From a virus (Duplodnaviria; Heunggongvirae; Uroviricota; Caudoviricetes), in IMG/VR virus record IMGVR_UViG_2778261215_000003: a stretch of DNA of 10,711 nt, one strand, 5' to 3'. Positions 1-10,424 of this stretch are shown here, in pieces. How positions within the stretch are numbered: the first letter of the stretch is position 1; the number at the start of each line of letters is the position of its first letter. The position numbers and the translations under genes are program-made. A model generated the notes under the pieces. It was not told the DNA's origin. It was given only the letters and a program-made list of their open reading frames with translations, and made no database searches.

Positions 1-567
1 ATGCTTATTGGCTATGTACGCGTGTCAACAAATGACCAGAACACTGATTTGCAACGTAATGCACTGAACTGCGCGGGATGTGAGCGGATTTTTGAGGATA
101 AAATCAGTGGCACTAAGTCCGACAGACCAGGGCTGAAAAAACTGCTCAGGACACTATCGGCAGGAGACACGCTGGTTGTCTGGAAGCTGGACAGGTTGGG
201 GCGCAGTATGCGGCATCTTGTTACGCTGATAGAAGAGTTGCGTCAGCGAGGCGTGAATTTCCGAAGCCTGACTGACAGTATTGATACCAGCACCCCAATG
301 GGCCGTTTCTTTTTTCATGTCATGGGTGCCCTGGCTGAAATGGAACGCGAACTGATAGTTGAACGTACCAGGGCAGGGCTGGCTGCAGCTCGTGCCAAAG
401 GCAGAGTAGGTGGACGCCGTCCTAAGTTGACCACCGAACAGTGGGCACAGATTGGGCGTTTACTCGAGGCCGGAGAATCAAGACAGCGTATTGCACTAAT
501 TTTTGATGTGGGTGTTTCCACAATTTATAGAAAATTTCCGGCAAATAAGAGTAATGAATCCCCCTGA
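1..567 (+). CDS. Serine DNA invertase, Hin/Gin/Cin/Pin family
   Basis: 188-aa ORF with stop TGA at 565-567. N-terminus GYVRVSTNDQ carries the catalytic Ser at residue 10; conserved VVWKLDRLGRS and MGRFFFHVMGALAEMERELIVERT blocks; C-terminal helix-turn-helix (GVSTIYRKF). Close to Salmonella Hin and Mu Gin by recall. Confidence 0.9.
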   Translation: MLIGYVRVSTNDQNTDLQRNALNCAGCERIFEDKISGTKSDRPGLKKLLRTLSAGDTLVVWKLDRLGRSMRHLVTLIEELRQRGVNFRSLTDSIDTSTPMGRFFFHVMGALAEMERELIVERTRAGLAAARAKGRVGGRRPKLTTEQWAQIGRLLEAGESRQRIALIFDVGVSTIYRKFPANKSNESP

Positions 568-1891: not shown

Positions 1892-2407
1892 ATGGCTTTA
1901 CCACGCAAATTAAAACATCTGAACCTGTTTAACGACGGGAACAACTGGCAGGGGATCGTTGAGTCGCTGACGCTGCCGAAATTCACCCGCAAATATGAGA
2001 AGTATCGCGGCGGCGGAATGCCGGGTGCAGTGGATGTGGATCTGGGGCTTGATGACAGTGCGCTGGACACAGAATTTTCCATTGGTGGTACTGAACTGCT
2101 GCTGTTTAAACAGATGGGCAAAGCCACGGTGGATGGCATCCAGTTGCGCTTCACCGGCTCTATCCAGCGTGACGATACCGGAGAAGTGCAGGCCGTGGAG
2201 CTTGTGGTGCGTGGACGTCACAAAGAAGTGGATTCCGGCGAGTGGAAGACGGGTGAAAGCAACACCACCAAAGTGACCAGTACCAACAGCTACGCGAAGC
2301 TGACTATCAATGGTGAGGTGCTCTATGAAGTGGACCTTATCAACATGGTGGAAATTGTGGACGGTGTGGACCTGATGGAAGCGCACCGCAACGCCCTCGG
2401 CCTCTGA
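1892..2407 (+). CDS. FII: Tail tube protein (P2 gpFII-like)
   Basis: 171-aa ORF starting 9 nt after the FI stop, with an AAGGGGA ribosome-binding site. Sequence MALPRKLKHLNLFNDGNNWQG matches P2 FII by recall; position and size fit. Confidence 0.92.
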   Translation: MALPRKLKHLNLFNDGNNWQGIVESLTLPKFTRKYEKYRGGGMPGAVDVDLGLDDSALDTEFSIGGTELLLFKQMGKATVDGIQLRFTGSIQRDDTGEVQAVELVVRGRHKEVDSGEWKTGESNTTKVTSTNSYAKLTINGEVLYEVDLINMVEIVDGVDLMEAHRNALGL

Positions 2408-2418
2408 TGTATCTGAAC

Positions 2419-2436
2419 GGCGCGGAATGCCGCGCC
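2419..2436 (+). other. GC-rich stem-loop in the FII-E intergenic region
   Basis: GGCGCGG (2419-2425) pairs perfectly with CCGCGCC (2430-2436) around a 4-nt loop AATG. No U-run follows, so it is not a canonical intrinsic terminator; it may be an mRNA stability or attenuation element. Confidence 0.3.
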
Positions 2437-2461
2437 AGAACCCAATTTACAGGACAGCAAA

Positions 2462-2764
2462 ATGAGCGATAAGCAGACTGAAAAGACTATTCAACTGGAT
2501 ACTCCCATCAAGCGCGGAAAAACGGAAATCACCGAAATTATGCTGCGTAAACCGCAGTCCGGTGCGCTGCGCGGTACACGCCTGCAGGCCATTATGGATA
2601 TGGATGTGAACGCGATGATGACCGTGATCCCCCGCATCTCCAGCCCGGCACTGACTGCACAGGAAATTGCAGAGATGGACCCGGCAGATCTCACCGCCAT
2701 GTCGGTTGAGGTTGTCACTTTTTTGTTGAAGAAGTCGGTGCTTGCCGGTTTACCGACAGCCTGA
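2462..2764 (+). CDS. E: Tail assembly chaperone (P2 gpE-like)
   Basis: 100-aa ORF between the tail tube and tape measure genes, the conserved position of the tail chaperone; contains the slippery heptamer near its 3' end. Confidence 0.85.
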   Translation: MSDKQTEKTIQLDTPIKRGKTEITEIMLRKPQSGALRGTRLQAIMDMDVNAMMTVIPRISSPALTAQEIAEMDPADLTAMSVEVVTFLLKKSVLAGLPTA

Positions 2765-2898
2765 CGGTTGACGATCTGGTGGCAGATATCGCCACCATTT
2801 TTCACTGGCCGCCATCCGTTACTGACGTTATGCCGCTGACCGAAGTGCTGGAATGGCGGTATAAAGCGATTCAGAGAAGCGGGGCCAACGATGAGTGA
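2462..2898 (+). CDS. E+E': Tail assembly chaperone frameshift product gpE+E' (programmed -1 frameshift at 2719-2725)
   Basis: After the T6G slippery run, the -1 frame is open for 57 sense codons from 2725 to TGA at 2896-2898, overlapping the T start at 2891. Predicted fusion about 145 aa. This mirrors the conserved G/GT and E/E' arrangement of long-tailed phages. Confidence 0.75.
2719..2725 (+). other. Slippery heptamer T TTT TTG (translational recoding site)
   Basis: TTTTTTG read in the E frame as A-CT TTT TTG; it is the same heptamer used by P2 E/E' by recall. Confidence 0.75.
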
Positions 2899-5800
2899 TA
2901 ATAACCTGCGCCTGCAGGTCATTCTTAATGCGGTTGACAAACTCACCCGCCCATTCCGTGCTGCACAGGCCAGTTCGAAAGAGCTGGCTGGCGCAATCAG
3001 AAACTCCCGTGACGCATTAAAGCAACTCAATCAGGCGGGTAACAGCCTGGAAAAATTTCGCAAGCTGCAGGCCGATAACAAGAAGTTAGGCGACAGGCTG
3101 AACTATGCCAGACAGAAGGCTAATTTGCTTAGCTCTGAGCTGGAGTCGATGGAACAACCATCACAACGGCACCTTGTGGCTTTAGGTCGGCAAACGCTGG
3201 CAGTCCAACGCCTGGAAGAACAACAAAAATATTTGCAGAAGCAAACGGCGCTTGTGCGTGCAGAACTGTACCGGGCGGGAATTTCTGCGAAAGATGATGC
3301 GGGAGCAACTGCCCGTTTAGCCCGTGAAACATCACGTTATAACCAGGAACTGTCGAAACAGGAGGCGCGGCTGAAGCGACTGGGGGAAGCTCAGCGCAGG
3401 ATGAATGCGGCGCGTGCCAGTTATGCCCGTTCACTGGAAGTGCGTGATCGTATTGCAGGTGCCGGAGCCACCACCACGGCTGCAGGGCTGGCAATGGGGA
3501 CGCCAGTGATGGCGGCAGTAAAAAGCTATACCAGCATGGAAGATGCCATGAAAGGTGTGGCAAAGCAGGTCAATGGTCTGCGTGACGATAATGGCAACCG
3601 TACTGCACGTTTTTATGAAATGCAGGATGCCATCAAAGCTGCCAGCGAACAGTTTCCGATGGAAAACGGTGCGGTGGACTTCGCTGCACTGGTTGAAGGT
3701 GGTGCGCGTATGAACGTTGCAAACCCTGACGACAGCTGGGAAGACCAGAAACGTGACCTGCTGGCCTTCGCCAGCACGGCGGCAAAGGCGGCAACAGCCT
3801 TTGAGCTGCCAGCGGATGAACTGTCAGAAAGTCTGGGGAAAATCGCCCAGCTCTACAAAATACCTACCCGCAATATTGAACATCTCGGTGACGCGCTGAA
3901 CTATCTGGATGATAACGCCATGTCGAAAGGGGCGGACATCATTGATGTCATGCAACGCCTGGGCGGTGTGGCTGACCGTCTGGATTATCGTAAAGCGGCG
4001 GCGCTGGGTTCCACCTTCCTGACACTGGGTGCTGCGCCGGAGGTTGCAGCCAGTGCAGCAAACGCGATGGTGCGTGAATTGTCCATTGCCACCATGCAAA
4101 GCAAGAGTTTCTTTGAAGGGATGAATCTGCTGAAACTCAATCCTGAAGTGATTGAAAAGCAGATGACGAAGGATGCTATGGGAACCATCCAGCGTGTGCT
4201 GGAGAAGGTGAATGCACTGCCGCAGGATAAGCGCCTGTCTGCCATGACCATGTTGTTTGGTAAAGAGTTTGGCGATGACGCAGCGAAACTGGCAAACAAC
4301 CTGCCGGAACTGCAGCGCCAGTTAAAACTGACAGCGGGCAATGATGCGCTCGGCTCCATGCAGAAAGAATCCGACATTAACAAGGATTCACTTTCTGCGC
4401 AGTGGTTGCTGGTCAAAACCACTGCACAGAATACCTTCAGCAGCCTGGGCGAAACGCTGCGCCAGCCGCTGATGGATATTCTGTACACGGTGAAAAGCGT
4501 TACGGGAGCGTTGCGTCGCTGGGTGGAAGCTAACCCGGAACTGACGGGCACACTGATGAAAGTAGCCGCTATTGTGGCTGCGGTTACCGTAGGCCTCGGC
4601 ACCTTGGCTGTGGCGCTGGCTGCAGTGCTGGGGCCGCTGGCAGTGATCCGTCTGGGGTTCTCTGTGCTGGGTATCAAAACGTTACCTTCCGTTACGGCAG
4701 CAGTAACACGAACCAGCAGCGTGTTGTCCTGGCTGGCTGGCGCACCACTGGCACTGCTGCGACGCGGGCTTGCTTCATCGGGCAACGCAGCGGGTTTACT
4801 TACTGCGCCGTTGTCGTCTTTGCGTCGCACGGCATCACTGACGGGAAATGTCCTGAAAACTGTAGCTGGTGCGCCGGTTGCACTGTTCCGGTCTGGATTA
4901 TCCGGTTTACGTGCTGTTGCTGTGATGTTTATGAATCCACTGGCAGCACTACGCGGCGGGCTGGCTGCCGCAGGCGCGGTGCTGCGAGTGCTGGCATCCG
5001 GCCCGCTGGCGATGCTGCGCGTTGCTCTGTATGCCATATCTGGTCTGTTAGGTGCTCTGCTCAGTCCGATAGGTCTTGTGGTTACTGCACTGGCAGGCGT
5101 GGCGCTGGTTGTCTGGAAATACTGGCAACCCATCACCGCATTTCTCGGTGGCGTGGTGGAGGGATTCAAAGCGGCGGCAGGTCCCATCAGTGCTGCATTC
5201 GAACCACTTAAGCCTGTGTTCCAGTGGATTGGCGACAAAGTGCAGGCGTTGTGGGGCTGGTTTACTGATCTGCTGACGCCCGTTAAGTCGACCTCTGCTG
5301 AACTGCAGAGCGCAGCGGCAATGGGGCGACGATTCGGGGAGGCACTGGCGGAAGGGCTGAATATGGTTATGCATCCGCTGGACTCCCTGAAATCTGGCGT
5401 TTCCTGGTTGCTGGATAAACTCGGCATTGTCAGTAAAGAGGCTGCAAAGGCGAAACTGCCGGAAAGCGTGACGCGTCAGCAACCTGCGACGGTGAATGCA
5501 GACGGTAAAGTGATGATGCCATCGGGTGGTTTTCCGTCATGGGGATATGGCTTTGCGGGGATGTATGACAGCGGCGGCTATATCCCGCGCGGGCAGTTTG
5601 GCATCGTCGGTGAAAACGGGCCGGAAATTGTTAACGGCCCGGCAAATGTGACCAGCCGGAGAAATACAGCTGCACTGGCTGCCGTTGTTGCCGGAATGAT
5701 GGGCGTTGCTGCCGCGCCTGCAGAGCTTCCACCGTTGCACCCTTTGGCACTTCCCGCGAAAGGCGGCGAAGCGATGGTGAGTCGTGCAGCCACTGTGCCG

Positions 5801-5968
5801 CCCGTTCAACGGATTGAGGCACCGATGCAGATCATCATTCAGACGCAGCCAGGACAAAGTGCGCAGGATATTGCGCGGGAGGTGGCCCGCCAGCTTGATG
5901 AACGTGAACGCAGGCTGAAGGCAAAAGCCAGGAGTAACTACAGCGATCAGGGGGGATACGACGCATGA
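2891..5968 (+). CDS. T: Tail tape measure protein (P2 gpT-like)
   Basis: 1025-aa ORF. N-terminal part is coiled-coil-like (Q/R/K/E/L-rich), the centre is a hydrophobic Ala/Leu/Gly/Val-rich repeat block, and the C-terminal region carries GIVGENGPEIV, a motif typical of tape measures. Start ATG 2891 overlaps the E' stop. Confidence 0.92.
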   Translation: MSDNNLRLQVILNAVDKLTRPFRAAQASSKELAGAIRNSRDALKQLNQAGNSLEKFRKLQADNKKLGDRLNYARQKANLLSSELESMEQPSQRHLVALGRQTLAVQRLEEQQKYLQKQTALVRAELYRAGISAKDDAGATARLARETSRYNQELSKQEARLKRLGEAQRRMNAARASYARSLEVRDRIAGAGATTTAAGLAMGTPVMAAVKSYTSMEDAMKGVAKQVNGLRDDNGNRTARFYEMQDAIKAASEQFPMENGAVDFAALVEGGARMNVANPDDSWEDQKRDLLAFASTAAKAATAFELPADELSESLGKIAQLYKIPTRNIEHLGDALNYLDDNAMSKGADIIDVMQRLGGVADRLDYRKAAALGSTFLTLGAAPEVAASAANAMVRELSIATMQSKSFFEGMNLLKLNPEVIEKQMTKDAMGTIQRVLEKVNALPQDKRLSAMTMLFGKEFGDDAAKLANNLPELQRQLKLTAGNDALGSMQKESDINKDSLSAQWLLVKTTAQNTFSSLGETLRQPLMDILYTVKSVTGALRRWVEANPELTGTLMKVAAIVAAVTVGLGTLAVALAAVLGPLAVIRLGFSVLGIKTLPSVTAAVTRTSSVLSWLAGAPLALLRRGLASSGNAAGLLTAPLSSLRRTASLTGNVLKTVAGAPVALFRSGLSGLRAVAVMFMNPLAALRGGLAAAGAVLRVLASGPLAMLRVALYAISGLLGALLSPIGLVVTALAGVALVVWKYWQPITAFLGGVVEGFKAAAGPISAAFEPLKPVFQWIGDKVQALWGWFTDLLTPVKSTSAELQSAAAMGRRFGEALAEGLNMVMHPLDSLKSGVSWLLDKLGIVSKEAAKAKLPESVTRQQPATVNADGKVMMPSGGFPSWGYGFAGMYDSGGYIPRGQFGIVGENGPEIVNGPANVTSRRNTAALAAVVAGMMGVAAAPAELPPLHPLALPAKGGEAMVSRAATVPPVQRIEAPMQIIIQTQPGQSAQDIAREVARQLDERERRLKAKARSNYSDQGGYDA
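4741..5030 (+). repeat. Degenerate tandem repeat (5 copies, 63-66 nt / about 21 aa period) inside T
   Basis: Repeat units begin near 4745, 4808, 4874, 4937 and 5003 (CCACTGGCACTGCTGCGACGCGGGCTT and variants), encoding PLALLRRGL / PLSSLRRTA / PVALFRSGL / PLAALRGGL / PLAMLRVAL. Confidence 0.7.
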
Positions 5969-6450
5969 TGATGGTGTTGGGATTGTACGTGTTTATGCTG
6001 CGCACCGTGCCGTATCAGGAGCTGCAGTATCAACGCAGCTGGCGACATGCGGCAAACAGCCGGGTAAACCGACGTCCGTCCACGCAGTTTCTGGGACCGG
6101 ACAACGACATGCTGACGCTTTCCGGTGTTCTTATGCCGGAGATAACAGGTGGCAGGCTGTCGTTGCTGGTACTGGAGCAGATGGCAGAACAGGGGAAAGC
6201 ATGGCCCCTGATTGAAGGCAGCGGCACGATTTATGGCATGTATGTGATTGAGGGACTGAATCAGACTAAAACGGAGTTTTTCCGCGACGGTATGCCGCGC
6301 CGGATTGAGTTCACCCTGTCGCTCAAACGGGTGGATGAATCCCTGTCCGATATGTTCGGTGATCTCAGTGCGCAACTGAATAATCTGCAGGACACGGCAA
6401 CGTCTGCCTTAAGCGATATCAGTAAAACGGTGGGAGGGCTGCTGTCGTGA
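5965..6450 (+). CDS. U: Tail protein (P2 gpU-like)
   Basis: 161-aa ORF; ATG at 5965 overlaps the T stop (TGA 5966-5968); GGGGGA ribosome-binding site at 5951-5956; position and size fit P2 U. Confidence 0.88.
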   Translation: MMMVLGLYVFMLRTVPYQELQYQRSWRHAANSRVNRRPSTQFLGPDNDMLTLSGVLMPEITGGRLSLLVLEQMAEQGKAWPLIEGSGTIYGMYVIEGLNQTKTEFFRDGMPRRIEFTLSLKRVDESLSDMFGDLSAQLNNLQDTATSALSDISKTVGGLLS

Positions 6451-7547
6451 ATTTCAGCTCTGAACTGCTTAACAAAGGCAACAAAACTCCGGCATTCAGC
6501 ATCAGTATTGAGGGCAGGGATATCACCACTGTGCTGGATAACCGCCTGATGAGTCTGACGCTGACGGACAATCGGGGCTTTGAAGCGGACCAGCTTGATC
6601 TGGAGCTGGACGACGCCGATGGAAAAATAGCGCTGCCGCGCCGTGGTGCGGTCATTACGCTGGCGCTGGGCTGGAAGGGGCAGCCGCTTTTCCCGAAAGG
6701 GGCATTCACGGTGGATGAAATTGAACACACTGGCGCACCGGACCGCCTGACTATCCGGGCGCGAAGTGCTGATTTTCGGGAAACGCTGAATACCCGCCGT
6801 GAAAAGTCGTGGCACAAGACCACCGTTGGGGAAGTGGTAAAGGAAATAGCTGCGCGGCACAAACTGAAGATGGCACTGGGTAAAGACCTGTCTGATAAAC
6901 CCGTGGAGCATATAGACCAGACTAATGAGAGTGACGGCAGTTTTCTGATGCGGCTGGCGCGACAGTACGGTGCTATTGCGTCGGTGAAAAATGGCAATCT
7001 GTTATTCATCCGGCAGGGACAGGGTAAAAGCGCCAGCGGTAAACCACTACCGGTGATCACTATCACACGTAAGGACGGCGACAGTCACCGCTTTACCCTG
7101 GCGGATCGCGGAGCTTACACGGGTGTAATTGCCAGCTGGTTGCATACCCGCGAACCCGCGAAGAAAGAAAGCACCACGGTGAAGCGTAAGCGCAGGACTA
7201 AGAAGCAGAAGAAAGAGCCGGAAGCGAAGCAGGGCGATTACCTGGTGGGTACGGATGAAAACGTGCTGGTACTTAATCGCACTTATGCCAACCGGAGCAA
7301 CGCCGAACGAGCGGCGAAAATGCAGTGGGAACGCCTGCAACGCGGAGTTGCGTCATTCTCGCTACAACTGGCGGAAGGGCGGGCAGATCTCTACACGGAA
7401 ATGCCAGTGAAAGTCAGTGGCTTTAAACAGCCGATAGATGATGCGGAATGGACCATTACGACTCTGACGCATACCGTCAGCCCGGATAACGGTTTTACGA
7501 CCAGTCTGGAGCTTGAAGTGAGGATTGATGATTTCGAAATGGAATGA
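6447..7547 (+). CDS. D: Tail protein D (P2 gpD-like, late gene D)
   Basis: 366-aa ORF with a GTG start at 6447 overlapping the U stop (GTGA); position immediately before ogr and size match P2 D. Contains a Lys/Arg-rich low-complexity segment (aa 237-262, nt about 7155-7232). Confidence 0.88.
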   Translation: MNFSSELLNKGNKTPAFSISIEGRDITTVLDNRLMSLTLTDNRGFEADQLDLELDDADGKIALPRRGAVITLALGWKGQPLFPKGAFTVDEIEHTGAPDRLTIRARSADFRETLNTRREKSWHKTTVGEVVKEIAARHKLKMALGKDLSDKPVEHIDQTNESDGSFLMRLARQYGAIASVKNGNLLFIRQGQGKSASGKPLPVITITRKDGDSHRFTLADRGAYTGVIASWLHTREPAKKESTTVKRKRRTKKQKKEPEAKQGDYLVGTDENVLVLNRTYANRSNAERAAKMQWERLQRGVASFSLQLAEGRADLYTEMPVKVSGFKQPIDDAEWTITTLTHTVSPDNGFTTSLELEVRIDDFEME

Positions 7548-7600: not shown

Positions 7601-7637
7601 TATTGTGAATTTAGCAAAAATGGGGAGAACTCGAAAA

Positions 7638-7856
7638 ATGATGATTTGCCCACTGTGTGGAAGTGCCGCCCATACTCGCAGCAGTTTTCAGGTATCTTCA
7701 TTGACCAAAGAGCGTTACAACCAGTGCCAGAACATTAACTGCAGCCATACTTTTGTTACCCATGAAACTTTTGTTCGTTCGATTGCAACGCCAAAAGAGT
7801 CAAATCCGGTTCAGCCGCATCCAATGAAATCAGGACAGGTGGCGCTCTCTCTTTGA
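7638..7856 (+). CDS. ogr: Ogr/Delta-family zinc-finger late transcription activator
   Basis: 72 aa from ATG 7638, with GGGGAGA ribosome-binding site at 7622-7628. Cys4 arrangement CPLC...CQNINC and the central KERYNQCQNINCSHTF block match P2 Ogr (72 aa) by recall. The upstream ATG at 7605 lacks a ribosome-binding site and would add a non-conserved extension. Confidence 0.9.
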   Translation: MMICPLCGSAAHTRSSFQVSSLTKERYNQCQNINCSHTFVTHETFVRSIATPKESNPVQPHPMKSGQVALSL

Positions 7857-7933
7857 CGCTGCCGCCATTTTGTCGCCATCGTTAAAAAACAGTGCTTCTA
7901 ACATCATGATTTTAAAAGGCATAAATTTCAGGC

Positions 7934-7979
7934 AACAAAAAACCCATCAACCTTGAACCGAAATGGCGGGGTTGATGGG
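7934..7979 (-). terminator. Putative rho-independent terminator, oriented for minus-strand transcripts (downstream of ybjL)
   Basis: 10-bp perfect stem CCCATCAACC (7943-7952) / GGTTGATGGG (7970-7979) with a 17-nt loop that can pair internally (CCG/CGG). On the minus strand the hairpin is followed by TTTTTTGTT (complement of 7934-7942). No U-run follows it on the + strand. Confidence 0.45.
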
Positions 7980-8091
7980 CTCCACAAAATGGGGACATCA
8001 AAGAAAAGCAGTGGCACTAATTAAGACTGATGCCCTGCGGAAAAGTTCTGCGGTTGTGCAAAAAAATTTCATTTTCAGGGCAACTTCAGTT

Positions 8092-9777
8092 TTATCCTAA
8101 TCCTGGCCATACCATGACGATGATTGTCCCTGCCAGCGTCAGCAGGACGTTGGCGATTGCGTAGGTGCCCGCGTAGCCCAGCGCAGGGATGTTACTGCGA
8201 GCTGTATCACTGATGATCTCCATTGCCGGCGCGCAGGTGCGTGCGCCCATCATTGCGCCGAACAACAGTGCGCGGTTCATTCGCAATACATAAGCACCGA
8301 ACAAGAAACAGATAACCACGGGCACAAGACTGACAATTAATCCGGCAATCAACATCTGACCGCCAATCGCGCCCAGGCCGTTATTAATACCGCTACCGGC
8401 GCTCAGACCAACGCCTGCCATAAACACCATCAAGCCGAACTCTTTCACCATGCTTAATGCACCTTGCGGAATGTAACCGAAGGTCGGGTGGTTAGCACGC
8501 ATAAAGCCCAGCATAATTCCGGCGAATAACAACCCGGCAGCGTTCCCCATGCCGAAACTGAATGTGCTGAACTGGAAGGTGATCATCCCGATCATCAGCC
8601 CAATAACAAAGAAGGCGCAAAATGCCAGCAGGTCAGTGACCTGGCTGTGAATCGAGATAAAGCCGATGCGATCGGCGATGGTTTTTACGCGACGGGCATC
8701 ACCGCTGACTTGTAAAACGTCACCTTTGTTAAGCACGACGTTGTCATCTATCGGCATCTCAATCTGGCTACGAATGACGCGGTTAAGGAAGCAACCGTGA
8801 TCGGTCAACTTCAGTTGTGCGAGACGTTTACCTACAGCGTTATGGTTTTTAACGACCACTTCTTCAGTGACGATACGCATGTCGAGAAGGTCACGATCGA
8901 AAACTTCTTTACCGTTACGGAAGCTGGGATCGAGTCGGGCATGGGCGTCGGGATAGCCTACCAACGCTATTTCATCGCCCATTTGTAGCACGGCATCACC
9001 GTCTGGATTTGCCAGAATCCCGTTACGTCGAATACGTTCAATGTAGCAGCCGGTTTGTCGATAAATACCCAGTTCACGCAGATTTTTGCCGTCGGTCCAG
9101 GCCACCAGCTCCGGGCCGACGCGATAGGCGCGGATCACCGGTAAATAAACCTTACGGTTGGCATCAGTGTCCAGGCCACGTTCGCGGGCGATTTGCTGGG
9201 CGCTGGTCTGTAAGTCCTGATGCTGCAATTTCGGCAAGTAACGCGCACCAACAATCAAACTCACCAGACCGATTAAATAGGTTAAGGCATACCCGAGGCT
9301 CAGATTATCCAGTGCCAGTGAGAGCTGCCTGCTTTCCATGCCGGAATGACGCAGTGTATCGCCAGCACCGACCAGAACCGGTGTCGACGTCATAGAGCCT
9401 GCTAACATACCGGCCGTCAGGCCAATATCCCAGCCAAACAGCTTACCTAACCCTAAGGCGATCACCAGCGCACTGCCAACCATCACCAGTGCTAACATTA
9501 GGTAATTTTTCCCATCGCGAAAAAAAATGGAAAAAAAGTTCGGTCCGGCTTCGACCCCGACGCAGAAAATAAACAGCATAAAGCCAAGATTAAGCGCATC
9601 GGTGTTAATGCTGAAATGTTGTTGGCCTAATAACAGCGATACGACTAAAACGCCAATGGAATTACCCAGTTGGATCGAACCAAGTCGTAACTTTCCGAGA
9701 CATAGCCCAAGCGCGAGGACCACAAATAATAACAGAATGTAATTCCCATTTAACAATTCGGCGACGTTTATATTCAC
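8092..9777 (-). CDS. ybjL: Putative transporter, YidE/YbjL (AspT-type duplicated) family
   Basis: 561-aa ORF, hydrophobic N- and C-terminal halves around a soluble central region; sequence and length match E. coli YbjL by recall. GTG start (complement of 9775-9777), TAA stop (complement of 8092-8094). Confidence 0.9.
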
Positions 9778-10046
9778 GGAGGCTAACTTCTTGTTTACTA
9801 GTAAGCTGTTGAAAGAAATGGTAATTTACGATAATGTTTTTTACCAGAATTCAGGGCGCAGATTCATTCAGCGCACCTAAACGATAGTAAAGTAACAATA
9901 TATTTTACTAGTGTAATCACATTAGGTATCAACGGCTATATGAATTGCGTTGGCCTATATTAGCATGGAATGCGAAGCGGCTTTATCTTACTGAACGCCA
10001 CACTGGCGAAAAATGTGTTCGATAGACGCAGTGTCAGGAGGAACGA

Positions 10047-10424
10047 GTGAAACATAAACAACGTTGGGCGGGGGCAATCTGCTGTTTTGTCCTCTTCATT
10101 GTGGTGTGCCTTTTTCTGGCGACGCACATGAAAGGCGCTTTTCGGGCTGCCGGGCATCCTGAAATCGGCTTGCTATTTTTCATTCTTCCTGGAGCAGTCG
10201 CCAGCTTCTTTTCACAGCGTAGAGAAGTCCTGAAACCTCTGTTTGGCGCAATGCTGGCGGCACCCTGTTCGATGCTCATTATGCGGCTGTTTTTTTCACC
10301 GACGCGCTCATTCTGGCAAGAGCTGGCATGGTTACTAAGCGCGGTGTTCTGGTGTGCGCTGGGGGCACTGTGTTTCTTATTTATCAGTAGTTTGTTTAAA
10401 CCACAGCACAGAAAAAATCAGTAA
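10047..10424 (+). CDS. ybjM: Small inner-membrane protein YbjM
   Basis: 125-aa hydrophobic ORF with a GTG start preceded by AGGAGG (10037-10042); sequence and its position between ybjL and grxA match the K-12 layout by recall. Confidence 0.85.
   Translation: MKHKQRWAGAICCFVLFIVVCLFLATHMKGAFRAAGHPEIGLLFFILPGAVASFFSQRREVLKPLFGAMLAAPCSMLIMRLFFSPTRSFWQELAWLLSAVFWCALGALCFLFISSLFKPQHRKNQ

What the first reader, a model, noticed from the sequence alone, without database searches (positions are those of the whole stretch)
2719..2898. E/E' programmed -1 frameshift: T6G slippery site with a 57-codon open -1 frame ending inside the T start
TTTTTTG at 2719-2725 lies near the 3' end of E, and the -1 frame is open from 2725 to TGA at 2896-2898. 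This is the conserved tail-chaperone recoding arrangement (lambda G/GT, P2 E/E'). A naive ORF caller misses E', as the supplied ORF track did.
Basis: partly seen in the sequence, partly recalled or inferred. Interest (0 to 1): 0.45.

Follow-up and report, generated by a model that had tools for sequence, protein, structure and literature searches.

The report
P2-type E/E' tail chaperone frameshift
This is the well-known programmed -1 ribosomal frameshift that lets P2-like phages make two tail-assembly chaperones (E and the longer E+E') from one start codon, here in a Klebsiella/Escherichia-type P2-like prophage; it is real but ordinary.

Summary
TTTTTTG lies at 2719-2725, phased T_TTT_TTG in gene E (2462-2764). 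The -1 frame is open for 57 codons from 2725 to the TGA at 2896-2898, which overlaps the tape-measure gene start (ATGAGTGA).

- E is a Pfam Phage_TAC_7 chaperone, and the -1 peptide matches Pfam Phage_P2_GpE over the whole profile (4e-19).
- The conceptual fusion aligns without gaps across the junction to phage P2 E+E' (49% identity, 5e-51). The P2 record annotates that protein as a -1 frameshift product.
- In all 77 related loci with both parts, E' lies in the -1 frame and an in-phase T_TTT_TTN heptamer sits in the overlap. Identity to E goes as low as 34%. The codon before the heptamer encodes 11 different amino acids but always ends in T.
- Sequence diversity peaks at third codon positions of frame 0 upstream of the site and of frame -1 downstream.
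- No conserved downstream RNA structure was found, in line with what is reported for P2.

Two small additions. An SD-like GAGGT sits 7 nt upstream and may be under selection. Database records for the closest phages split E' off as a free-standing 39-aa ORF.

Verdict: already known, low interest.

The parts
1892..2407 (+). FII tail tube gene, the upstream neighbour that fixes the position of the chaperone genes
   Evidence: Pfam Phage_tube 8.8e-60
2462..2764 (+). Gene E: tail assembly chaperone, 100 aa, 10.9 kDa, the product of standard decoding
   Evidence: Pfam Phage_TAC_7 2.4e-18. PHROG 103 'tail protein' 6e-44. Translation, mass.
2707..2709 (+). TGA in the -1 frame. It closes that frame upstream, so the shift must occur between 2710 and 2764.
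2708..2716 (+). SD-like GAGGTTGTC (GAGGTGGTC in most relatives), 7 nt from GAGG to the heptamer. Possible 5' modulator of the shift (inferred, untested).
   Evidence: It is the strongest anti-SD complement in the E gene in the window (-10.3 kcal/mol) and in 10 of 16 clade representatives. The Glu codon here is GAG 52: GAA 4, against 80: 229 elsewhere in E.
2719..2725 (+). Slippery heptamer T_TTT_TTG, the site of the -1 shift
   Evidence: In phase in 77 of 77 related loci with both parts. Among 75 distinct sequences the last base is G in 60, A in 11, T in 2 and C in 2. The wobble T at 2719 and the TTT codon are invariant. The same heptamer is annotated as the frameshift site in P2.
2725..2898 (+). 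E' extension in the -1 frame: 57 codons plus TGA. With E residues 1-88 it gives E+E' (145 aa, 16.1 kDa), conceptually join(2462..2725, 2725..2898).
   Evidence: Pfam Phage_P2_GpE 4e-19 over profile positions 1-37 of 37. PHROG 1756 and 6416. Gapless alignment to P2 E+E'. Diversity peaks at third positions of the -1 frame.
2891..5968 (+). Gene T, the tape measure protein. Its ATG overlaps the E' stop (ATGAGTGA).
   Evidence: Pfam PhageMin_Tail 6.7e-19. The same overlap occurs in P2 as ATGAGTAA.

Best explanation
The window carries the late tail operon (FI-FII-E/E'-T-U-D-ogr) of a P2-like prophage. Its closest relatives are the Elveevirus phages 4LV2017 and Cartapus.

Most ribosomes translating E terminate at 2762-2764 and make the 100-aa chaperone E. 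A minority slip back one base on U_UUU_UUG (2719-2725), when UUU and UUG occupy the P and A sites. They then read GUU at 2725 as the next codon and continue for 57 codons to UGA 2896-2898. The product is the 145-aa E+E', with the E N-terminal domain fused to the conserved ADIATIFHW...WR..A..RSG domain.

The heptamer appears to act without a downstream RNA structure. An SD-like GAGGU 7 nt upstream may modulate the shift.

By analogy with lambda G/GT, the shared E part would bind the tape measure protein T, and the E' part would recruit the tube protein FII. This would fix a high E : E+E' ratio for tail assembly.

Shown here: the sequence anatomy, the homology, the conservation, and the frame-specific selection. 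Inferred from P2 and lambda work: that the fusion protein is made, its abundance, and the roles of the two proteins.
For: - Anatomy.
- Homology: E matches Phage_TAC_7 and the -1 peptide matches Phage_P2_GpE. PHROG tail families match both parts.
- The fusion aligns to P2 E+E' at 49% identity over 139 aa with no gaps, 5e-51, with the junction in the same column.
- The P2 and L-413C records annotate a joined E+E' CDS with a -1 frameshift at the same heptamer. Fels-2 (87% DNA identity) carries a slippage note.
- In 77 of 77 loci from Enterobacterales to Burkholderiales, Neisseriales, Pasteurellales and a Rhodobacteraceae MAG, E' is in the -1 frame and an in-phase T_TTT_TTN lies in the overlap.
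- The preceding codon encodes 11 different amino acids but always ends in T, and TTT is never TTC.
- Mean diversity at codon positions 1/2/3 is 0.07/0.04/0.36 in frame 0 upstream of the site, and 0.06/0.02/0.21 in frame -1 downstream of the E stop. In the dual-coding stretch all positions are low, at 0.02-0.08.
- In about 12 diverged loci the first ATG/GTG/TTG of the -1 frame lies downstream of the invariant ADIATIFHW core, so E' cannot be started independently there.
- Literature: PMC3091744 and PMC3931495 summarise Christie et al. 2002. PMC5009743 describes the lambda G/GT mechanism.
Against: - There is no direct evidence of the fusion protein for this element.
- In this window a GTG at 2779 precedes the conserved core, so independent initiation is not excluded by this sequence alone.
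- The junction residue and the shift efficiency are unknown. The roughly 10% figure for P2 is from my memory of Christie et al. 2002, which I could not read.
- The SD-like element sits closer (7 nt) than the 9-14 nt reported for -1 stimulators.
Confidence: 0.93

Rival explanations
1. E' is a separate small gene, initiated at GTG 2779 to give a free 39-aa protein. This is how GenBank, RefSeq and PGAP annotate it in the closest relatives. No recoding would be involved.
For: A GTG ORF at 2779-2898 exists. It is annotated as a stand-alone CDS in CP019275, 4LV2017, Cartapus and RE-2010. The Pfam PF06528 model begins at exactly that codon.
Against: - The 18 codons between the heptamer and 2779 are open in all 77 loci. 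They are conserved as protein in the -1 frame (VEEVGACRFTDSLTVDDL against P2 VAELGAVTFPKNLSVDDL).
- The equivalent codon is GTC or ATT in some relatives. In about 12 loci the first start codon lies beyond the conserved core.
- SD complementarity upstream of 2779 is weak, at -4.5 kcal/mol.
- According to PMC3931495, P2 E' lacks a ribosome binding site and is read as an extension of E.
Confidence: 0.03
2. The fusion is made by transcriptional slippage. RNA polymerase adds one extra U on the T6 run, and standard translation of that mRNA then gives E+E' with Phe at the junction.
For: The site is a homopolymer run. Some relatives have T7 or T8 runs (L005, L042, L048, L050, L058), where slippage is more plausible. 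The resulting protein would be nearly identical.
Against: - A run of six is shorter than the runs that, as far as I recall, support efficient bacterial RNA polymerase slippage (from memory, not checked here).
- The run is always in the X_XXY_YYZ phase with respect to E, in 77 of 77 loci. Ribosomal slippage requires that phase; transcriptional slippage does not.
- The P2 record calls the event a translational frameshift.
Confidence: 0.03
3. The coincidence is chance. A T6G run and an open -1 frame have no function, and only E and T are expressed.
For: Open -1 runs of at least 57 codons are not rare in this window (about 9% of codon boundaries). One TTTTTTG per strand is near expectation.
Against: The Pfam match of the -1 peptide (4e-19), third-position periodicity in the -1 frame, the invariant heptamer, and the open frame across 77 loci.
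Confidence: 0.01

Closest known systems
Bacteriophage P2 E / E+E' programmed -1 frameshift (Christie et al. 2002; NC_001895 P2p25/P2p26)
   Same: - Same heptamer (TTTTTTG) in the same phase and at the same alignment column.
- Homologous E (43% identity) and E' (56% identity), and the same 57-codon extension.
- The E' stop overlaps the T start by 8 nt.
- Same FI-FII-E-E'-T-U-D-ogr gene order.
- No conserved downstream structure.

   Different: E has 12 codons after the heptamer instead of 6, so it is 100 aa against 91 aa. The codon before the heptamer is ACT (Thr) instead of GGT (Gly). The element belongs to another genus (Elveevirus-like rather than Peduovirus).
Fels-2 / RE-2010 / SopEPhi (Felsduovirus) and Klebsiella phage 4LV2017 / Escherichia phage Cartapus (Elveevirus) E and E' genes
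   Same: 85-98% DNA identity across E-E', with identical coordinates for the heptamer, the E stop and the E' stop. The Fels-2 record already notes that 'translational slippage' forms gpE+E'.
   Different: Nothing substantive. The records of the closest phages list E' as a separate 39-aa CDS rather than a joined one.
Phage lambda G / GT tail assembly chaperone frameshift (Levin et al. 1993; Xu et al. 2004, 2013, 2014)
   Same: Two chaperone products share an N-terminus. They are encoded between the major tail gene and the tape measure gene and are linked by a low-level -1 shift near the end of the first ORF (PMC5009743).
   Different: No detectable sequence similarity: E matches Pfam Phage_TAC_7 only. 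From memory, lambda uses the heptamer G_GGA_AAG. Lambda has a non-contractile tail, P2-like phages a contractile one.
E. coli dnaX and IS-element -1 frameshift cassettes
   Same: An X_XXY_YYZ heptamer decoded by bacterial ribosomes, with an SD-like sequence 5' of the site.
   Different: The dnaX SD lies 9-14 nt upstream and is helped by a 3' stem-loop. Here GAGG is 7 nt upstream and no conserved 3' structure is seen. Unlike dnaX, the shift here extends the protein rather than truncating it.

Membership tests
P2-type E/E+E' tail chaperone frameshift | The pair of ORFs lies between the tail tube gene (FII) and the tape measure gene (T) in a contractile-tail operon | tested here: met
   FI sheath, FII tube, T, U, D and ogr identified by Pfam. 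Same order as P2.
P2-type E/E+E' tail chaperone frameshift | The upstream ORF is homologous to gpE (Pfam PF10109, Phage_TAC_7) | tested here: met
   2.4e-18, 66 bits against a cutoff of 25. 43% identity to P2 E by tblastn.
P2-type E/E+E' tail chaperone frameshift | The downstream overlapping ORF is in the -1 frame and homologous to E' (Pfam PF06528) | tested here: met
   4e-19, 68 bits against a cutoff of 23, over the full profile. The frame offset is -1.
P2-type E/E+E' tail chaperone frameshift | An in-phase T_TTT_TTG slippery heptamer lies inside the stretch where both frames are open | tested here: met
   Heptamer at 2719-2725. Both frames are open over 2710-2764.
P2-type E/E+E' tail chaperone frameshift | E' has no translation start of its own | tested here: inconclusive
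   In the window, a GTG at 2779 with weak SD complementarity (-4.5 kcal/mol) precedes the conserved core. In about 12 diverged relatives no start codon precedes the core.
P2-type E/E+E' tail chaperone frameshift | The heptamer and the open -1 frame are conserved in relatives beyond what E's protein sequence requires | tested here: met
   77 of 77 loci. The preceding codon encodes 11 amino acids and always ends in T. Third-position periodicity switches frame at the site.
P2-type E/E+E' tail chaperone frameshift | The fusion protein is produced at a low fixed fraction, and both E and E+E' are needed for tail assembly | not testable with these tools
   Reported for P2 in Christie et al. 2002, cited. 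The paper itself is not held.
Lambda G/GT family (by homology) | Sequence similarity to lambda gpG / gpT | tested here: not met
   Pfam returns only Phage_TAC_7 and Phage_P2_GpE for the fusion at E<=0.01. PMC3931495 states there is no amino-acid similarity. This is a functional analogue, not a member.
Known frameshift-stimulating RNA elements (Rfam) | Match to a curated frameshift element, or a conserved 3' structure with covariation | tested here: not met
   - No Rfam match at E<=1 in 2400-3000.
- The alifold consensus shows only a 4-bp hairpin 55 nt downstream, with no real covariation.
- The 50-nt fold has a z-score of -0.98.

The most novel reading that the evidence does not exclude
The SD-like GAGGU(G)GUC that sits 7 nt 5' of the heptamer may be a selected modulator of the E/E' shift, acting at a spacing shorter than the 9-14 nt described for -1 stimulators. 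If so, the E : E+E' ratio in P2-like phages would be set by an rRNA-mRNA contact and not by the heptamer alone. The element is the top anti-SD match of the E gene in 10 of 16 clades, and its Glu codon is strongly biased to GAG.
Probability: 0.25. Interest if true: 0.3.

Novelty: already known. Interest (0 to 1): 0.08.

Why it matters
It matters mainly for annotation. The correct gene model is a joined CDS, join(2462..2725, 2725..2898), alongside E. The free-standing 39-aa 'GpE family' ORF that pipelines and the records of the closest phages give is not the right model.

Biologically it is one more instance of the conserved tail-chaperone recoding of P2-like phages. The comparative panel shows how rigidly the T6N heptamer and its phase are kept across Proteobacteria. 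The possible SD-like modulator is a cheap hypothesis to test, because it can be mutated with synonymous changes.

Tried and rejected
- **Downstream stimulatory structure.** An 80-nt fold gave z = -2.88. This comes from a GUGGC/GCCAC hairpin about 55 nt downstream that encodes the conserved V-A-D-I-A-T peptide. The 50 nt next to the site give z = -0.98, relatives give -1.7 to +1.8, and the alignment fold shows no covariation. Rejected as a stimulator.
- **Rfam scan of 2400-3000.** No match.
- **PDB sequence search with the fusion.** No solved relative at E<=1.
- **Christie et al. 2002 (PMC135442).** Not held. I relied on two papers that summarise it and on the P2 record.
- **Structure prediction and large protein database searches.** Not run, because they would not change the verdict.
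- **Bare-pattern statistics.** The T6G count and the length of the open -1 frame are not significant on their own.
- **Other in-phase heptamers in the operon** (AAACCCT, GGGTTTA, GGGAAAT, CCCTTTG, GGGGGGA in T; TTTCCCG in D). Listed and not pursued.

Full report
**Observation**

Gene E runs from ATG 2462 to TGA 2762-2764 and encodes 100 aa. TTTTTTG occupies 2719-2725, and its 0-frame reading is AC[T TTT TTG], the X_XXY_YYZ phasing needed for tandem -1 slippage. From 2725 the -1 frame reads VEEVGACRFTDSLTVDDLVADIATIFHWPPSVTDVMPLTEVLEWRYKAIQRSGANDE, 57 codons, and stops at TGA 2896-2898. That stop lies inside ATGAGTGA, where ATG 2891 starts a 1025-aa ORF.

The -1 frame is closed by a TGA at 2707-2709. 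The two frames are therefore both open only over 2710-2764, and the heptamer is the only in-phase slippery heptamer there.

The pattern alone is not beyond chance. TTTTTTG is expected about 0.33 times per strand in this window. About 9% of codon boundaries in the window's + strand genes start an open -1 run of at least 57 codons.

**What the pieces are**

- E matches Pfam Phage_TAC_7 (2.4e-18).
- The -1 peptide matches Pfam Phage_P2_GpE over the whole 37-position profile (4e-19).
- PHROGs places both parts in tail families.
- The neighbours are a sheath gene (710-1882), a tube gene FII (1892-2407), a tape measure gene T (2891-5968), gpU (5965-6450), gpD (6447-7547) and an Ogr/Delta zinc-finger gene (7605-7856). 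This is the P2 late tail-gene order FI-FII-E-E'-T-U-D, followed by ogr.
- At the DNA level the stretch is 98% identical to Klebsiella and Escherichia P2-like phages of the genus Elveevirus (4LV2017, Cartapus). It is 85-87% identical to Fels-2, SopEPhi and RE-2010.

**Comparison with P2**

The P2 reference record annotates E+E' as a two-piece joined CDS, 'shares amino terminus with gpE; -1 frameshift', with a marked frameshift site. The P2 sequence has the same TTTTTTG in the same phase, and an E' stop that overlaps the T start as ATGAGTAA.

I built both conceptual fusions and aligned them. They match at 49% identity over 139 residues with no gap (5e-51), and the junctions fall in the same column.

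The Fels-2 record says that gpE+E' forms 'if translational slippage occurs'. Two papers summarise the P2 work. According to them, E' lacks a ribosome binding site, extends back into E in the -1 frame, and is read from a T6G site. They also report that the site is conserved in P2-like phages of Burkholderia and Stenotrophomonas, and that no downstream hairpin is found (PMC3091744; PMC3931495).

**Comparative test**

One scan of species-representative genomes returned 78 loci. I added P2, L-413C, Fels-2 and CP019275. In all 77 loci that hold both parts:

- E' lies in the -1 frame relative to E.
- The -1 frame is open from the heptamer to within a few bases of the T start.
- An in-phase T_TTT_TTN lies in the overlap.

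Identity to this E falls to 34-50% in Chromobacterium, Bordetella, Methylophilus, Histophilus, Gilliamella and a Rhodobacteraceae MAG. Among 75 distinct sequences the last base of the heptamer is G in 60, A in 11, T in 2 and C in 2.

The codon that supplies the first T encodes 11 different amino acids (Thr, Gly, Ser, Asn, Leu, Pro, Phe, Ile, Tyr, Asp, Ala), yet it always ends in T. The Phe codon is always TTT, never TTC. This is selection on nucleotides, not on the protein.

In 28 ungapped relatives (83-98% identical), mean diversity at codon positions 1/2/3 is:

| Region | Frame | Pos 1 | Pos 2 | Pos 3 |
|---|---|---|---|---|
| Upstream of the site | 0 | 0.07 | 0.04 | 0.36 |
| Downstream of the E stop | -1 | 0.06 | 0.02 | 0.21 |

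In the 36-nt dual-coding stretch all three positions are low, at 0.02-0.08.

**Rivals**

*Independent initiation at GTG 2779.* This is how PGAP and the records of the closest phages present E'. The evidence goes against it:

- The 18 codons upstream of 2779 are open in every locus and conserved as protein.
- The equivalent codon is GTC or ATT in some relatives.
- In about 12 diverged loci the first ATG/GTG/TTG of the -1 frame lies beyond the invariant ADIATIFHW core.

*Transcriptional slippage on T6.* It would give almost the same protein. It may contribute in relatives with T7 or T8 runs.

*Chance.* Excluded by the homology and the periodicity.

**How it works**

Most ribosomes terminate at 2762-2764 and make E (10.9 kDa). 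A minority slip one base back on U_UUU_UUG and make E+E' (145 aa, 16.1 kDa).

No conserved 3' structure helps. The 50 nt after the site fold no better than shuffles (z = -0.98), relatives behave the same way, the alignment fold finds only a 4-bp hairpin 55 nt downstream with no covariation, and Rfam finds nothing.

The roles are inferred from lambda G/GT (PMC5009743). The shared part would bind the tape measure protein, and the extension would recruit the tube protein. I recall a frequency of about 10% for P2, but I could not read that paper.

**One thing beyond the finding**

GAGGTTGTC at 2708-2716 (GAGGTGGTC in most relatives) is the strongest complement to the 16S rRNA 3' end anywhere in E. 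This holds in this window and in 10 of 16 clade representatives. The Glu codon there is GAG 52 times and GAA 4 times, against 80 GAG and 229 GAA elsewhere in the same genes. GAGG ends 7 nt before the heptamer, which is closer than the 9-14 nt quoted for -1 stimulators. Its role is open. The sequences are related, so these counts overstate the number of independent events.

**Verdict**

The finding is real and correctly interpreted. It is the textbook P2 E/E+E' recoding site in a close relative of sequenced phages. Novelty: already known. The practical value is a corrected gene model.

Noticed in passing
window 2708-2716: SD-like GAGGT(G)GTC just 5' of the slippery heptamer. It is the strongest anti-SD match in the E gene here and in 10 of 16 clade representatives. 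The Glu codon there is biased to GAG (52:4, against 80:229 elsewhere). The 7-nt spacing is shorter than the 9-14 nt reported for -1 stimulators.
   Followed up: partly
window 2779-2898; L001 3480-3599; L083 680-799; L084 518-637; L085 518-637: Records of the closest relatives (PGAP on CP019275, RefSeq 4LV2017 and Cartapus, RE-2010) annotate E' as a free-standing 39-aa GTG ORF instead of a joined frameshift CDS. The P2 and L-413C records carry the join.
   Followed up: yes
window 1-567: An intact serine invertase (Resolvase plus HTH_7 domains, Hin/Gin type) lies just upstream of the sheath gene. The same gene is a frameshifted pseudogene in CP019275. This suggests an invertible tail-fibre segment beyond the left edge of the window.
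   Followed up: no
window 7856-10424: The prophage appears to end between the ogr-like gene (7605-7856) and host-type genes: an Asp-Al_Ex/TrkA_C permease (8092-9777, - strand; I read it as YbjL-like, from memory) and a Pfam YbjM-family gene (10047-10424). The attachment site should lie around 7860-8090, a stretch with several A6/T6 runs.
   Followed up: no
window 5950-5968: An in-phase G_GGG_GGA heptamer lies 18 nt before the T stop, and its -1 frame is gene U. It is most simply U's ribosome binding site (AGGGGGGA) with ATGA stop/start coupling, not a second recoding site.
   Followed up: no
L001 (CP019275.1, whole record): A 37.4-kb circular E. coli 'plasmid' (p13P477T-2) is 98.5% identical to the window over 2300-3100 and carries the P2-like tail operon. 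It is probably a circular phage genome, or a phage-plasmid, filed as a plasmid.
   Followed up: no
L005 1757-1764; L042 and L048; L050 and L058; L055 and L063: Variants of the slip site occur in relatives: T7G (Escherichia sp. MOD1), T8G (Plesiomonas, Providencia), T7 followed by A (Marinobacterium, Bordetella), and T6C with longer 66-67-codon extensions (Histophilus, Canicola). Longer runs could allow some transcriptional slippage.
   Followed up: partly
window 2779-2797: A GUGGC-N7-GCCAC hairpin is conserved about 55 nt downstream of the heptamer. It coincides with the invariant V/M-ADIAT peptide and shows no covariation, so it is probably a by-product of protein conservation.
   Followed up: yes
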